From contig NC_087258.1 in assembly GCF_037042905.1 (NCBI RefSeq), forward strand, positions 19,964,001-20,028,000: DNA of 64,000 nucleotides, read 5' to 3'. Of this stretch, positions 1 through 9,000 are shown in pieces. Position 1 is the stretch's first letter; the number at the start of each line of letters is the position of its first letter. This stretch comes from Lytechinus pictus. Taxonomy: Eukaryota. The position numbers are program-made.

Positions 1-3000
1 TGACGTAACAAATCAAAACTTAAGATTCTTGTACCTTTCTTAATCTTTGATGGATTTACCTCAAATATTATTATCAATATTTAGTCTTGATATTTTTCTG
101 GTATTTTTATCCAACAAACTTTTTCATCTGGGTGAACTTCCCCTTTAACTCGTTTAAATTACCTTGATACCTTGCAGATGGGGATCAAGAATGGACTGAT
201 GAGCAGGATGACCCTGCTGACCAGCCTTCTACCAGCGAGTCCACAAGCGCACCCGTGATGACCGATGCGCCACCAGTGGAAATCAAGCAAGAACCTCTGA
301 GTGATGATGAGGGTATGCGCACACTCCTCCATTTCAAGCTTTTCATATTTATAGCAGTCTAGAATTTTAACCGTAACCAGGCAGAGGTGGGAAGGAGGGC
401 TGATGAGAGGTTCTACCTCAACATTTTGAGCAATGTTTTTGCGATTCTAAGTTAGCTCTTGCCGTGATGCATGGGAGTAAAGTAAAGAATTATATAACAT
501 TGACTGGCCTTGAGGGAAACATGAAATACATTGCCTGAAACTGAATCATATTGGCCCAAGTCTTTAGACAAGGGCAATAAATTTGACATTCCCCGAAAGA
601 AGAGCCAGTCAATATTTTTGTTATAATCTAAATAATGTATCTCAAGCAAAAATCATGAAAATTGAGATATTTCACTCCTAAAATGGAATTCTAATTGTCA
701 TGTTGAGCATCTAGGGCCTCTGAACCTTACCGTATTGATGTACTAGTAACTGAAATGTTGCGTCCATGGGTTTGTCCTATACGGGATGCAGATCGATTAT
801 AAGGTATGTTGTTGATGCGCAGATACATATGACGCATATCTCTTTCTGCGCATCCTCAGATGCTCGGATATGAGACCTGGGAAAAAACAAAGGTATATTT
901 TGTGTCGTCTCTTCATGCAAAGTCGGTACACGCAGAAAGACCAAGCAAAATACAAATAATATCTCTACCTCTTTCCTATATTCATAAAATCTCAGGGAAA
1001 TACGGTTTTGTAAATTATGTCTGATATTGGTAATAATTATGAACATTTAGTTTTGATAGTGAAATGAATTGGTTTTCCACACAAACTTGCATTTTTTTCT
1101 TTTGTATATTGTCCTTTCCAGGCCAACACATTCCTTACCAAGAGGATCCCGACCAATTTGCAGAGAGCTACAAGATGTTAGAATCCTTGCGGAGATCCTG
1201 TGAGCAAGGGGTAGCAGAGAGATCTTCTACAGGTGGCCCCTTGGACAGTAAGTCGCCCCCTCCGTTGCTTGACGTAGATGGAATCAAACAAGAAAGGGTA
1301 GAGGTTATCATTTGCGCAATCTGTGGTGATATGTACAATAACCAGAGTGCTTTTGATGAACACCAAAAAGTTTCACACTTTTCTGTAATAAACCGTCACT
1401 CTGTGGTCGGAGATGAAAGGGGAGTGGAACTCTCCAAGGAGACTGTGGGGAATGACCCAGTCTCTCAGATAGTCAGGTTTGAAGTAGAGGAAGGAGGTTA
1501 TGAGGTATTGGATGAAACAAAGAATGTCCAGAATTCAGTAGATCCAGAGGAAGGGTGGAACCTTAGTGGAAGCCAAGAAATGCCAAGTAACTCCCAATGT
1601 GTACAATCCGAGTCCCGTACTTGTAGATTTTGTAAGAAAGCATGTCCCAACAAGCGTATGTACTTGCTACACTTGAGAACTAAACACAGTGAAGAACTCC
1701 CTTATGAATGTCCAAATTGTAAGGCCAGGTACTTGGAGAAGAGAGACTTGGATAGTTTCAGTCGCACCAGGGCAGGGCGAACTGATAAGGGTGGTAAGGA
1801 CAGAAATATTTGTGAGTTTTGCGGGGACAAGACCTCATATCTTTGCCTCACGTGTGATAAGGAATTTAAAAGCAGATCCAAATTGATAGCGCATCAAAAG
1901 GTGCACAGTAAACACAGACTGTGCTATTGCCATTTGTGTGACGAGTACTTTCCAGATACGCGGCAAACTAGGGAGCATTTAGAGACCCACTATCCTATCA
2001 TAGACAAAAAACAAAATAATAAAAGACAGTCAGTTCAGGCTGCAAGTAGGATCGGGAGGAATGGTCAAATAATCTCTGGTACCATTACACCGTACAGGAA
2101 GAGGCCACCTCCCGGCGCTGGCACCAGGGTGCCTCTTCCCCGCTTTGAGCATATGCAGAACAGCCAGCGCCAGAATTATTTACCTAAACACTTCCTGTCT
2201 CTTGGAGTTCCATATTTTGTCCGTTCTTCTGATCAAAGGCCACAGCATCCTGATATGTCTGTACAGTCCATTCTAGATACTGTCCACAGGGCTGCTTCGC
2301 AGGTGCAAACCTCTTTTCCATCGCCTAGCCATTGCTGCCAGTGGTGTGGCATGGATTTTGATAATTTAAAAGAATTGGTGGAGCATACACAAATCCACAT
2401 CAAAAAGGATAAAACACAATGCCCGGTCTGTAAGAAATATTCCAGATCAAGAAAACTCTTCAGGAAGCACCTTAGACAACATGGTATCATTCTTTCCTAT
2501 GAGTCAAGTTCGCGTTCATCATGCAATTCTCAGATGTCTATGCAATCAAGGAACAGTATGTTGATGTCGCGCAAGAAAACTCCTCCTAAAACTTACATAT
2601 CTCAGAGGGCTAAACTAAAAAGGAGTGACAGGTTGATGAAAAAATACCTGTCTGATAGGTCGAATAAATCCAGGTCCTCATCTAGCCTTGGAAAATGTCC
2701 AGTAGAATCTCAAAATTTTGAAAACAGGCAAAACACCCAACATGCCAGCAGTCACTCTGTTTACCCCCAGCAAAACAATCCGTCTCTGAATTTTGAGAGT
2801 AACACAAGTGTTGACTCATCACAAAATTCAATACTTTCTAGTCCAGGAGACGAAAAGTCCTACATTCATAGTTGTGGTGGGTGCAAATGCGAATTCAAGA
2901 GTCGAGAATTGCTTTCCCAGCATATCTGTGTACCGAAATTCAAGTTAGGCATATATTGTCATCTTTGCCCGAAGTGGTTTGAATCCAAACTTGGCTTGCA

Positions 3001-6000: not shown

Positions 6001-9000
6001 TGATACATTTGGCACCTCTGATGAAGTTCAACAAGGAGACTGTAATCCACAGACAAAGGTGCCCTCATCTTGTGAAACACAAAATCTATCTTCAGACCCA
6101 TATGGTATAGAATTGATTGAGGATGACATCGGGTCACCTGCTTTGCAGAACCTAGAAAACTTGGAATCGGATCAAACAGTGGTGCAGAAGGAAGGGACCT
6201 CAAATGAAATGGATCTCCCCCCGAATAATGTACATGAAAATGCAGCTGAAAATCTGCCTGGTGACCTCACTTGTGAAAACCTGCAGAACGCTGAAAGATC
6301 TTTGAAAGCATGTGATACATCTGGAACCTCTGATCAAGTACAGCAACAGGATCGTATCCAGCAGCCAAAAGTGCACCCATGTGGGGAACCTCAAAATCAA
6401 TCTATAAGACCATATAGTATGAAAGTCGCTGATAAAGAAAGCAGATGGCAATGTTCTCTTTGTCAGAAGAAATTTCATGAAGCAGTAGAAGTTGTATATC
6501 ATGTACAGGTCCACGCAGAAGGTGATGTCAAACGTTGCCCGATCTGTGCAGAGACCTTGATCCTGCAGAAGTATGCATTCACATCACATTTCATTAAACA
6601 TGGCATTTTGATTACCCAGTCACCTATGTCACAGGACATGAACAAGGAAACGAATAACAGTATGGTGAGGAATGAAGGCACCGTAGCTAACAGGCCATGT
6701 AGTGATATCCCTCAAGAGAATAGTCATAAGATGGGGAAATCTTTAGAGGAAAATTCTTCATCCCAAACGTCTGATTACGTACAAGATGATAGGGTCCCGG
6801 AGGCGGTACACACCTCTCTTGATGTACAATCTGTAAAGAAGGAGAAGACATGGCAGTGCTGTTTTTGTAAGATAGATTTTCATGACCCAATGGAAGTCGT
6901 GGAACATTCAAATGTTCATGTGAAAGGCAACGTTAAGCGTTGTCCAATCTGTTCCCAGTTCATAAGTCGGAAGCCGTTTGCAATGAACAAACATTTCAGG
7001 AAGCATAAAATTAAGATCCCCTCAAACAGTGACAATGCCATCGTTGGTCATACAAGCAATGACTCTCTTGTTTCGCAGGACGTTGCGAACAAACAAACAG
7101 AGCACACAGGTGGAATTGAATAAAATCTCTTGGCTCAGATACTGCACCCGTCATATGATATTTAATTAGGACATGACGCAAGATATTGTGTGAATTGTGT
7201 CCATACTGTTTACAACATCAGTGTTTCATAAAATGTTTCATCAACTGAATAATTGCCAGATTTCAAAGACAAATTTTGTATTGGCTGAATCGATTGCAGG
7301 GATTTCAGGACCTCTTGATTGTTCCATGTAACTTGCTAGGAATGTCCTTTATTATGTAGGCTTCCGGTTCCACTTCAAGTTGATTGCTTGTATTCATACA
7401 GTGTTGGTTCCGGTGTCAGTGCAGGTTTGATAGTGGAAATCTTGAGAGATTTTCATGAAAGGACTTCTCAGCCAATCAAGGAAAGTTGTCAGATCTGATG
7501 ATATGTCAGACAGCAACTGTTGATGAAACCCTCCCCAGGCTGCTTATTTACTTTTAGCTCCAACAGATATGACTTTATCAAAATAAGGTCAGTCATATCA
7601 TGAATAGCTTGACACCAGTAAGTGATGTTAATTCTATCAGCGTCTTTTCGGATTTGGTATTGTCCTAGGCCCTGATGATTATTAGGAATTTCGGGGGCGT
7701 CGTGGTCTAGTGGTTACGACTTTCTTCTTTCAATCAGAGGGACGTGGGTTCGAATCCCAGCCATGGCGTGTTTTCCTTCAGCAAGAAGTTTACCCACATT
7801 GTGCTGTACTTGAACCAGGTGAGGTGAATGGGTACCCAGTGGGATTTATTCCTTGAATGCTTTTTTGCCTATTTGGCAGCTCAGCTACAGCCAGGGTAAT
7901 AATATGATACCAATTATCAAGTGCAGTAGAGTATATGCAATTATAGTAGCTGCGCTATTTATTAATGGACCATATTATTATTATTTTTCCCTCTGTGATG
8001 TATGGAGGATTCAAGAACACAGTAAACGTATTGAAAATGCTCGTCAAATGACAAAGAACAGCCGTGAGGTCTTTGTCGAAAATTGATGAACCGGAAAAGG
8101 CAGTTTCATCCCTTCGTTTCGGAGCCGACGTTTGTTTGACATTTGCCCAGCGTCAAGCACTAAACTACTGCTATGATTCACTAGTTTTCGATTTCTTGGT
8201 TTTTGCCCTAAAAAATATTTTGAAATTTAAGTCCAAGGTTTTGTGACGTTGCAATAAAACTGATTGCATTATATAATTATTCTCTTACTCTTGCAGTGCT
8301 CCTTGATTCAATCCTGTAGCTAACACTGATCTTCATGTACAGTAATCCTTTTGAGGTTAAAAAAAGCATTTAGTTCTGTTTCATGTGAATTTTGACTTGA
8401 TTGTTAAGTGTCATATGGGATGACCAAGTTTACTTTCCCATTCTGATGCTTCGATTCGACTATGGGCACTCACAATCAAATTTTGGAAAATATAGATGTA
8501 TTTTCTGCATCAAAACTCTGTCAACATTTGATAAGTAAAATTGTACTCCCATTGGCTCATATTGGTTTGGCTTACTATATACTCAGCTGTGGAACTTTGC
8601 ATGTTTATGGAATGCTTGCATGTCTTCAATGATTATTCTTTGTTGTCATTTGTGATTTTGTTAATGATATGGCTTTAAAACTTTCCATTTCTAAAGCACT
8701 ATAGACTGATTATTGCATTGACGCCCAATGGCGACAATGCATTGTTCTTGTTCCGTATTCCTATTCCGTCGTCTTCTTCTTCTTCTGCTTCTTCCACAAA
8801 ATCCCATTTGTTTAACACATGGTTTTTGTTAGCTCTACCCTGGCTCCGTCCCTCATCCAAATTCATCCAAACTTTGTAGACATGTTGTCCAGCATCCCTA
8901 GTTGTGCACCTCGTCTTCCATTTTCCAAAATCACTCATGCATGACCATCAAGGCGCCATTTTGTAAATTTCAAGTCCATTTGCATACCATTACTAATCTC

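What the first reader, a model, noticed from the sequence alone, without database searches (positions are those of the whole stretch)
2333..7012. Unusual two-finger module (CxWC...H-x3-H-x3-GxNxCPxCxxW[FY]...H-x3/4-HGI) repeated 12 times, with a higher-order A/B period
Seen: 12 doublets, nine with CxWC in the first finger and eight with a Trp three residues after the CPxC of the second. There are no TGEKP linkers and almost every doublet ends in HGI. Modules 2-9 (about 3272-5251) alternate type A (CAWCxKxF...GNNCCP) and type B (RCxWCDEEF...), giving four copies of a four-finger super-repeat. Known: inter-finger Trp packing joins two fingers into one unit in the tandem CWCH2 motif of Zic/Gli/Glis, but there the second Trp sits between the cysteines. 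Inference: a distinct fused double-finger domain that may bind protein or RNA rather than DNA in the canonical way.
Basis: partly seen in the sequence, partly recalled or inferred. Interest (0 to 1): 0.65.

Follow-up and report, generated by a model that had tools for sequence, protein, structure and literature searches.

The report
Sea-urchin Trp-marked double zinc fingers
A giant exon of an uncharacterised sea-urchin gene encodes a dozen widely spaced pairs of C2H2 zinc fingers with a conserved, unusual tryptophan signature; it is a lineage-restricted variant of an ordinary fold, and its ligand is unknown.

Summary
Window 1122-7123 (+) is the giant last exon of a sea-urchin gene. It is not human. 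Its translation is 89% identical to Lytechinus variegatus LOC121427583.

It encodes 12 two-finger modules plus one degenerate module. Of the 12, 9 have CxWC in finger 1, 8 have CPxCxxW[FY] in finger 2, 9 end in HGI, and none has a TGEKP linker. Modules 2-9 form four A/B units, which are also visible as DNA repeats of about 510-565 nt.

- **Rarity:** both Trp positions occur in about 0.4% of 4,688 background fingers. Both are invariant in all 12 A/B modules of the window protein and a distant relative, P0003.
- **Range:** in 1.84 billion representative proteins, only those two relatives carry the signature.
- **Not tCWCH2:** the modules fail the published patterns and have the canonical 7-residue linker.
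- **Not clearly zf-Di19:** each module alone scores below that Pfam cut-off.
- **Charge:** finger 1 is acidic and finger 2 basic.
- **Structure:** AlphaFold2 models one module as a confident unit, with A and B joined by a disordered linker.

Trp-Trp packing and the ligand remain untested. I rate it a new variant of a known kind, of modest interest.

The parts
178..312 (+). Upstream coding exon of the same gene (acidic region). Earlier exons lie beyond the start of the window.
   Evidence: tblastn of P0002 aa 116-161 gives 96% identity at 177-314. An AG acceptor sits just before the exon and a GT donor just after it.
1122..7123 (+). Giant last exon, about 2000 codons, ending in a stop codon. 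It encodes all the fingers.
   Evidence: Open frame 1043-7123. AG acceptor at 1120-1121. P0002 aa 161-2146 aligns to 1121-7120 at 89% identity.
1313..1990 (+). N-terminal cluster of 4-5 C2H2 fingers of another type (aa 91-316). These lack the Trp signature.
   Evidence: Regular expression. A2 was built from the 12 signature modules only. The pair at aa 268-316 groups with P0003 aa 256 at 100/100 support.
2336..2491 (+). Module 1 (aa 432-483): CQWC in finger 1, CPVC in finger 2 with no Trp at +3, ending in HGI.
   Evidence: The P0003 counterpart (aa 786) does have the second Trp.
2873..3022 (+). Finger 1 is irregular (CGGC...H-x-C). Finger 2 reads CHLCPKWF...H-x4-H.
   Evidence: It is conserved in P0002 and P0003.
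3278..3667 (+). A/B unit 1: module A (aa 746-797, ends HAI) and module B (aa 821-875).
3842..4225 (+). A/B unit 2: module A (aa 934-985) and module B (aa 1009-1061, ends HGV).
   Evidence: AlphaFold2 models.
4361..4750 (+). A/B unit 3: module A (aa 1107-1159) and module B (aa 1183-1236).
4874..5254 (+). A/B unit 4: module A (aa 1278-1328) and module B (aa 1351-1404).
5600..5758 (+). Module 10 (aa 1520-1572): CCSC in finger 1. Finger 2 (CPIC) has Tyr in place of the first zinc His. Ends in HGI.
   Evidence: L. variegatus has His at that site.
6452..6610 (+). Module 11 (aa 1804-1856): no Trp at either signature site. Trp sits 2 residues before the first Cys instead. Ends in HGI.
6857..7015 (+). 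Module 12 (aa 1939-1991): same type as module 11. Ends in HKI.
   Evidence: Modules 11 and 12 pair in the tree at 87/52 support.

Best explanation
The region is the finger-bearing body of a lineage-restricted sea-urchin gene, the orthologue of L. variegatus LOC121427583.

**What each module is.** Each module is a tandem C2H2 pair in the canonical register: C-x2-C-x12-H-x3-H, a 7-residue linker, then C-x2-C. It has been specialised into a self-contained two-finger bead with these parts:
- an acidic finger 1 that carries a Trp in the zinc knuckle (CxWC);
- a conserved x-A-x-G-x-N-x linker instead of TGEKP;
- a basic finger 2 of non-canonical length that starts with CPxC and carries a Trp on the outer face of its beta-hairpin, at +3, next to the core aromatic residue;
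- a closing HL[RK]xHG[IV].

A dozen such beads sit on long, poorly conserved linkers that are predicted to be disordered.

**Origin of the A/B period.** An ancestral A-B pair arose before the window lineage split from the P0003 lineage. It was later duplicated in tandem to give four copies. The period records how the array grew. It is not a folded four-finger domain.

**Most likely mechanism (inferred, not shown).** The two exposed, invariant Trp residues and the linker hold the two fingers in a fixed orientation. Finger 1 acts as a cap or partner surface that does not contact nucleic acid, as finger 1 of GLI does. The basic finger 2, with its HL[RK]xHGI tail, makes the contact with a polyanion, either DNA or RNA. 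The array then binds multivalently.
For: **Shown**
- The signature counts hold.
- The signature residues are rare in other fingers: 17 and 20 of 4,688 for the two Trp positions, and 14 of 4,675 for HGI.
- Both Trp are invariant in 12 of 12 A/B modules of P0001 and P0003, although the helices vary in sequence and length.
- Modules are 93% identical between the window and L. variegatus (638 of 686). The rest of the exon is 87% identical (1042 of 1197). Fisher p = 5e-5.
- Finger 1 has net charge of -1 or lower in 11 of 12 modules (sum -24). Finger 2 has net charge of +1 or higher in 12 of 12 (sum +47). Background fingers average +2.15, and only 9.2% are at -1 or lower. The combination F1 <= 0 with F2 >= 2 occurs in 7.4% of 2,415 background pairs. 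P0003 shows the same asymmetry: finger 1 is at -1 or lower in 6 of 8 modules.
- AlphaFold2 on one module (12-row alignment) gives pLDDT 86.8 and pTM 0.63, with the linker block at 86.
- AlphaFold2 on an A/B unit gives pLDDT 73 and pTM 0.44, with the A-to-B linker below 50.
- The best Foldseek match is free SSV1 B129 (2WBT): rmsd 3.6 A over 57-58 columns, probability 0.97. DNA-bound pairs lie at rmsd about 9-11 A.
- The A and B clades each contain P0003 modules, with support 85/79 and 93/94.

**Inference**
- A pTM above 0.5 for two equal halves implies a confident relative placement of the two fingers.
- In a beta-beta-alpha finger, the knuckle position and the +3 position point away from the finger's own core (textbook topology). 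DSSP places W38 in the hairpin. Conserved Trp at those positions therefore implies an interface.
- GLI finger 1 does not contact DNA (PMC2837044 section 29).
Against: - No coordinates were available, so no Trp-Trp distance or burial was measured.
- The alignments fed to AlphaFold2 were shallow and made only of paralogous copies from this window.
- The Foldseek match is weak (E = 0.02, TM 0.47-0.50).
- AlphaFold2 is often confident about tandem fingers in general, and no control pair was folded.
- The module profile aligns end to end with ordinary DNA-binding pairs such as ZFP568, Aart, CTCF and SALL4, and the linker has the canonical length. Canonical two-finger DNA reading is therefore not excluded.
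- Three C-terminal modules lack both Trp yet keep the rest of the module.
- No expression, localisation or binding data were available for this gene. Two literature searches found nothing.
Confidence: 0.45

Rival explanations
1. This is an ordinary sequence-specific DNA-binding poly-zinc-finger transcription factor. Each pair reads about 6 bp with both fingers in the canonical way, as widely spaced pairs do in SALL- or Schnurri-type proteins. The Trp residues, CPxC and HGI are only inherited framework quirks of one gene family, with no inter-finger core.
For: - The register and the 7-residue linker are canonical.
- The A2 profile matches DNA-binding pairs end to end at 20-32 bits per pair.
- zf-C2H2_4 scores 128.7 bits overall, and 8 of 13 modules pass its cut-off alone.
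- Helix residues vary between copies, as expected for diversified DNA specificity.
- Finger 2 is basic.
Against: - Finger 1 is net acidic in 11 of 12 modules, against 9.2% of background fingers.
- There is no TGEKP linker.
- The Cys-His spacing of finger 2 varies from 11 to 14 residues.
- Two invariant Trp at positions that face away from each finger's own core need an explanation.
- The AlphaFold2 module is not in a DNA-wrapped conformation.
Confidence: 0.3
2. The modules are zf-Di19-like readers of a protein or a modification (ubiquitin or poly-ADP-ribose type), like the Di19-ZF region of RNF166 and KCMF1. The protein would then be a multivalent scaffold.
For: - zf-Di19 is the only two-finger Pfam model that matches nearly full length: it is listed for 11 of 13 modules, and the whole protein scores 67.4 bits against a cut-off of 27.5.
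- CPxC in finger 2 looks like a feature shared with Di19. This is recalled and was not tested here.
- The RNF166 C-terminus, including Di19-ZF, binds poly-ADP-ribose (PMC10937711, passages read).
Against: - 0 of 13 modules reach the cut-off alone.
- P0003 gives no zf-Di19 hit at E <= 0.01.
- Precomputed zf-Di19 labels also appear on many unrelated long zinc-finger proteins, so the summed score is not specific.
- In RNF166, the Di19-ZF alone did not bind.
- The protein has no RING or UIM context.
Confidence: 0.1
3. The modules bind RNA, as the tCWCH2 protein Zfp106 and the JAZ-type fingers do. The exposed Trp residues would stack on bases.
For: - There are weak zf-C2H2_jaz hits. The best is 23.9 bits against a cut-off of 22.6 for module B1; the others are below the cut-off.
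- Exposed aromatic residues combined with a basic finger 2 fit RNA binding.
- Zfp106 is described as binding G-quadruplex RNA (PMC11295049; search listing and start of the abstract only).
Against: The JAZ hits are single-finger, mostly sub-threshold and inconsistent. There is no RNA-related domain or context, and no data.
Confidence: 0.1

Closest known systems
Tandem CWCH2 (tCWCH2) motif of Zic/Gli/Glis, Zap1, PacC, Aebp2, Zfp106 and others (Hatayama & Aruga 2010, PMC2837044)
   Same: - Two adjacent C2H2 fingers have conserved Trp residues near the zinc knuckle.
- There is no TGEKP linker.
- Finger 1 is unlikely to contact DNA.
- The Trp of finger 1 sits two residues after the first Cys, as in tCWCH2.
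- The residue after the first His of finger 2 (phi2) is Leu in 10 of 12 modules.
   Different: - Finger 1 is C-x-W-C with no residues between W and C. The published patterns need at least 1-2 residues there.
- Finger 2 has no Trp between its cysteines. Its Trp is at +3 after the second Cys, on the second beta-strand.
- The linker is 7 residues in 12 of 12 modules, against 11.8 +/- 4.4 in tCWCH2.
- phi1 is mostly Thr or Ser (V/L/I in 4 of 12).
- The patterns match 0 times.
- Neither Zic, Gli nor Zap1 chains appear in the top 60 PDB profile hits. 2GLI ranks 43 at rmsd 9.2 A.
Pfam zf-Di19 (PF05605) double finger of plant Di19, RNF166/RNF114/RNF125/RNF138 and KCMF1
   Same: It is a 54-position two-finger model that the modules match nearly end to end. 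The whole protein exceeds the cut-off.
   Different: - No single module reaches the cut-off; the best scores 26.9 against 27.5.
- zf-C2H2_4 scores higher in 11 of 13 modules.
- P0003 is not matched.
- The Trp signature and HGI are not known to me as Di19 features. This is recalled and was not tested.
SSV1 B129, a free double C2H2 finger (PDB 2WBT; Pfam PF22034)
   Same: It is the best structural match of the modelled module: rmsd 3.6 A over 57-58 columns, probability 0.97. PF22034 scores 30.4 bits (cut-off 27) on module A4.
   Different: It is an archaeal-virus protein at 29-32% identity, with E of only 0.02 and TM 0.47-0.50. It gives no evidence of kinship beyond the C2H2 clan. I did not see how its two fingers relate to each other (one search gave only a table entry).
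Proteins built of widely spaced finger pairs (for example SALL4 clusters), and the unnamed THAP-PR-domain protein P0045
   Same: - The architecture is beads on a string.
- SALL4 two-finger clusters are among the PDB sequence hits.
- P0045 (2388 aa) has 11 spaced pairs with an acidic finger 1. Five of them have W[FY] at +3/+4 in finger 2: four as CPxC and one as CSVC.
   Different: - SALL and P0045 pairs lack CxWC in finger 1 and lack HGI.
- P0045 has a 6-residue linker and a shorter finger 2.
- P0045 is only 21-24% identical to P0001, and its taxon is unknown.

Membership tests
tCWCH2 (tandem CWCH2) | Trp between the two zinc cysteines in both adjacent fingers, matching the PHI-BLAST pattern CxWx(2,35)C...CxWx(1,3)C or its looser form | tested here: not met
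   Both patterns (PMC2837044 section 6) give 0 matches in P0001, P0002 and P0003. Finger 2 reads CP[VIL]C.
tCWCH2 (tandem CWCH2) | Inter-finger linker longer than canonical (11.8 +/- 4.4 aa) | tested here: not met
   The linker is 7 residues in 12 of 12 modules.
tCWCH2 (tandem CWCH2) | No TGE(K/R)P linker | tested here: met
   0 TGE[KR]P in P0001.
tCWCH2 (tandem CWCH2) | V/L/I(/M) at phi1 and phi2, the residue after the first His of each finger | tested here: inconclusive
   phi2 is Leu in 10 of 12 modules and Phe in 2. phi1 is V/L/I in 4 of 12 and Thr or Ser in 8. In my background set V/L/I/M already fills 50% of such positions, so the test has little power.
tCWCH2 (tandem CWCH2) | The two Trp side chains are juxtaposed in a shared hydrophobic core in 3D | not testable with these tools
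   Structure prediction returns no coordinates. 2GLI ranks 43 at rmsd 9.2 A.
Pfam zf-Di19 (PF05605) | Score at or above the gathering cut-off of 27.5 bits | tested here: inconclusive
   The whole protein scores 67.4 bits over 7 stretches, and P0002 scores 60.6. Single modules score 15.8-26.9 bits, so 0 of 13 reach the cut-off, and 2 of 13 are not listed. P0003 has no hit at E <= 0.01.
Classical C2H2 zinc finger (Pfam zf-C2H2_4 PF13894; clan C2H2-zf) | C-x2-C-x12-H-x3-5-H with the core Phe/Leu, at or above the cut-off of 27 bits | tested here: met
   128.7 bits over 11 stretches. 8 of 13 modules pass alone. AlphaFold2 gives beta-beta-alpha twice per module.
Orthologue group of L. variegatus LOC121427583 | Collinear full-length similarity, including module-for-module correspondence | tested here: met
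   89% identity over 2005 aligned positions. All 12 modules and the degenerate one are present in the same order.

The most novel reading that the evidence does not exclude
The CxWC...CPxCxxW[FY]...HGI module is a second, independently evolved solution to fusing two C2H2 fingers into one rigid domain. It would use a knuckle Trp on finger 1 and a strand Trp on finger 2 within a canonical-length linker, which makes it structurally distinct from tCWCH2. The acidic-cap and basic-finger bead would read a non-DNA or non-canonical ligand (RNA, a modified protein, or DNA through one finger only). A dozen such beads would make an echinoid-specific multivalent chromatin or RNA scaffold.
Probability: 0.25. 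Interest if true: 0.55.

Novelty: new variant of a known kind. Interest (0 to 1): 0.33.

Why it matters
C2H2 fingers are the commonest DNA-binding fold in animals. Only one sequence hallmark, tCWCH2, is currently used to predict that two neighbouring fingers fuse into one unit and that one of them leaves the DNA.

A second hallmark with a different geometry and a canonical linker would refine how finger arrays are read from sequence, in particular which fingers should be scored for DNA specificity. This gene would also be a compact natural test set. It holds 8 Trp/Trp modules, 1 module with one Trp and 3 with none, all in one protein.

The stakes are otherwise modest. The signature was found in a single gene lineage, and no function is known.

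Tried and rejected
- **Human origin:** rejected. The best relative is a sea-urchin protein.
- **RNA genes:** Rfam at gathering thresholds found none in the window.
- **Tandem Repeats Finder:** it found no array in 1000-7200 apart from one 8-nt repeat. The super-repeat is too diverged for it.
- **Cluster look-up:** The listing of cluster members, tried in order to name P0003 and other hits, was not available. 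The taxon of P0003 therefore stays unknown, and I did not try to work out its source.
- **Search with P0003:** it returned only P0003 itself and P0002 at E <= 1e-20.
- **'Shorter' length class:** this search gave only generic fingers, at E >= 1e-17.
- **ESM Atlas:** it gave only generic C2H2 clusters, and recognition was below its own mark.
- **Foldseek on the A/B model:** it was uninformative overall (rmsd about 13 A to long arrays) because the A-to-B linker is disordered.
- **Complex prediction, module A against module B:** no verdict (score 0.00, controls not run, alignments not used). This is not evidence either way.
- **A folded four-finger A/B domain:** not supported.
- **phi1/phi2 as a test of tCWCH2-like packing:** uninformative in my background set.
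- **Collections not used:** No echinoderm genome DNA could be scanned.
- **Spliced protein:** All searches used translations of the single large exon.
- **Supplements:** the supplementary files of PMC2837044 (its list of 587 tCWCH2 sequences) could not be seen.

Full report
**What is there**

The finding lies in one open frame, window 1043-7123 on the + strand (2026 codons). The polypyrimidine tract and AG at 1120-1121, together with the alignment to the nearest relative, place the start of the coding exon at about 1122. A small upstream exon lies at about 178-312, and earlier exons lie outside the window.

The nearest protein is 'uncharacterized protein LOC121427583 isoform X2' of the sea urchin Lytechinus variegatus (P0002, 2146 aa). 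It is 92% identical over the repeat region and 89% over 2005 aligned positions. The window is therefore echinoid, not human. I built and searched no joined-exon model. Every search used the single large exon.

**Checking the observation**

- 9 CxWC, each in the first finger of a pair;
- 8 CPxCxxW[FY];
- 9 HGI, with HGV, HAI and HKI in the other three modules;
- no TGE[KR]P.

Every module has the canonical C-x2-C-x12-H-x3-H first finger and a 7-residue linker (12 of 12). The second finger has 11-14 residues between Cys and His, and either H-x3-H or H-x4-H.

Two details should be added. A 13th, degenerate module sits at aa 611-660. In module 10, finger 2 has Tyr in place of the first zinc His in this species, where L. 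variegatus has His.

The A/B period is real:
- The four units align at 47-58% identity with 49 invariant columns.
- The repeat finder recovers 4 A copies (spacing 564, 519, 513 nt) and 4 B copies (564, 522, 504 nt).
- The copies are old: 58-67% nt identity and 47-55% at third codon positions. Tandem Repeats Finder misses them.

**Is the signature unusual and conserved?**

Trp fills the CxWC position 17 times and the +3 position 20 times. HGI follows the last His 14 times in 4,675.

The copies here are paralogues, so the raw counts are not independent. The stronger evidence is conservation:
- Both Trp are invariant in 12 of 12 A/B modules of the window protein and of a distant relative, P0003 (1909 aa, 27-39% identical, unnamed source). 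The helices between them vary in sequence and even in length.
- Between the window and L. variegatus, modules are 93% identical (638 of 686) and the rest of the exon is 87% (1042 of 1197), with Fisher p = 5e-5.
- In a tree of 22 modules, the A clade (85/79) and the B clade (93/94) each contain P0003 modules. The A/B split therefore predates that divergence. Deeper nodes are unresolved: 11 of 19 inner branches are open.

**Range**

A phmmer search used the four A/B units (673 aa) against 1.84 billion representative proteins. It gave 8,088 hits at E <= 1e-3 and 5 at E <= 1e-30. Only P0002 (1635 bits) and P0003 (530 bits) stand apart from a continuum that begins at 198 bits.

At that point the session held 181 proteins. 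The full signature occurs only in P0001, P0002 and P0003, and 161 of the 181 have none of five sub-signatures. Searches with P0003, in the shorter length class and in the ESM Atlas added nothing.

One unnamed protein, P0045, deserves mention. It has five THAP domains and a PR domain. It also has 11 spaced pairs with an acidic first finger, and five of them have W[FY] at +3/+4 of the second finger. It lacks CxWC and HGI, and its linker is 6 residues. This bead style is therefore not wholly unique. No echinoderm genome DNA could be scanned, so the true range remains open.

**Comparison with named families**

*tCWCH2.* I read sections 5, 6, 27 and 29 of Hatayama & Aruga 2010 (PMC2837044). Measured against it:
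- Its two search patterns match nothing in P0001-P0003.
- Its linkers average 11.8 residues, against 7 here.
- Its second Trp lies between the cysteines, which is not the case here.
- The absence of TGEKP is shared.
- The phi-position test is uninformative.

*Pfam.* The whole protein passes zf-C2H2_4 (128.7 bits) and, by summation, zf-Di19 (67.4 bits against 27.5). Module by module, zf-Di19 scores 15.8-26.9 bits: it is listed for 11 of 13 modules and none reaches the cut-off. P0003 has no zf-Di19 hit at E <= 0.01. Precomputed zf-Di19 labels also sit on many unrelated long finger proteins.

*PDB.* A profile of the 12 modules aligns end to end, in canonical register, with ordinary tandem pairs in the PDB (ZFP568, Aart, CTCF, SALL4). 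No Zic, Gli or Zap1 chain appears in the top 60.

**Structure**

AlphaFold2 on one A/B unit (4-row alignment) gave pLDDT 73 and pTM 0.44. The 17 residues of the A-to-B linker scored below 50. The super-repeat is therefore not predicted to be a folded four-finger domain.

AlphaFold2 on one A module (12-row alignment) gave pLDDT 86.8 and pTM 0.63, with two beta-beta-alpha fingers and a confident linker. My inference is that a pTM above 0.5 for two equal halves means their relative placement is predicted with confidence. I folded no control pair to calibrate this.

Foldseek places the module nearest to the free double finger SSV1 B129 (2WBT): rmsd 3.6 A, probability 0.97, but E of only 0.02 and TM 0.47-0.50. 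DNA-bound pairs are far away at rmsd about 9-11 A, and 2GLI ranks 43.

No coordinates are returned. The central claim, Trp-Trp packing, is therefore untested.

**Charge asymmetry**

This point is new. Finger 1 is net acidic in 11 of 12 modules (sum -24), and finger 2 is net basic in 12 of 12 (sum +47). Background fingers average +2.15, and only 9.2% are at -1 or lower. The combined pattern occurs in 7.4% of 2,415 background pairs. P0003 shows the same pattern.

An acidic finger is a poor candidate for lying in the major groove. This parallels GLI finger 1, which does not contact DNA (as cited in PMC2837044 section 29).

**Interpretation**

My best reading (confidence 0.45) is as follows. Each module is a canonical-register C2H2 pair, specialised into a rigid bead with an acidic cap finger and a basic contact finger. 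It is held together by the linker and the two outward-facing Trp residues. The beads are strung on disordered linkers, and the array was multiplied by tandem duplication of an ancient A-B pair.

The ligand is not known. A polyanion contacted by finger 2 is the most economical guess.

The rivals are:
- an ordinary two-finger DNA reader (0.3);
- a Di19-like reader of a protein or a modification (0.1), for which the lead is RNF166 (PMC10937711, passages read);
- an RNA binder (0.1).

**In print**

Searches for 'tandem CWCH2' (10 papers), 'zf-Di19' (12), 'LOC121427583' (0) and a sea-urchin/C2H2/tryptophan combination (5, none relevant by title or abstract) found no description of this module or gene. 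Subscription journals and the supplementary lists of PMC2837044 were not visible.

**Verdict**

The feature is real and conserved, and it was found only in this one gene lineage. It is a new variant of the C2H2 tandem pair, not a member of tCWCH2 and not clearly of zf-Di19. Its interest is modest until a structure or a ligand is obtained.

Noticed in passing
window 14164-16515 (+): A second long open frame (783 aa) encodes another multi-C2H2 protein (zf-C2H2 109 bits). Its N-terminal finger cluster is 33% identical to P0002 aa 323-457. It is probably a neighbouring paralogue that shares the N-terminal cluster but lacks the Trp modules.
   Followed up: partly
window 5933-6108 and 6245-6420 (+): A 176-nt direct duplication (78% identity) lies inside the exon, between modules 10 and 11. 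It encodes two copies of a non-finger segment rich in acidic residues and Gln.
   Followed up: no
window 5600-5758 (+), aa 1520-1572: In module 10, finger 2 has Tyr where the first zinc-binding His should be. The L. variegatus orthologue keeps His. This finger may be decaying in this species.
   Followed up: no
window 55484-55978 (+): An open frame matches the Tc3-type transposase HTH domain (PF01498, 62.7 bits against a cut-off of 31.5). It is probably a Tc1/mariner remnant.
   Followed up: no
window 28129-28749 (+): A 206-aa open frame has a sub-threshold fibronectin type III match (23.6 bits against 25) and a hydrophobic stretch. It may be an exon of a membrane protein.
   Followed up: no
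window 22001-24000 and 32001-34000: GC skew is strongly negative here (-0.37 and -0.43). The regions contain low-complexity frames rich in His, Met or Ser/Pro/Thr.
   Followed up: no
window 31508-31914: A run of 407 N. I left it as it is.
   Followed up: no
P0045 (unnamed representative, 2388 aa): This protein has five THAP domains, a PRDM-type PR domain and 11 widely spaced finger pairs. Their first finger is acidic, and five have W[FY] at +3/+4 of the second finger. It looks like a parallel or distantly related 'bead' architecture.
   Followed up: partly
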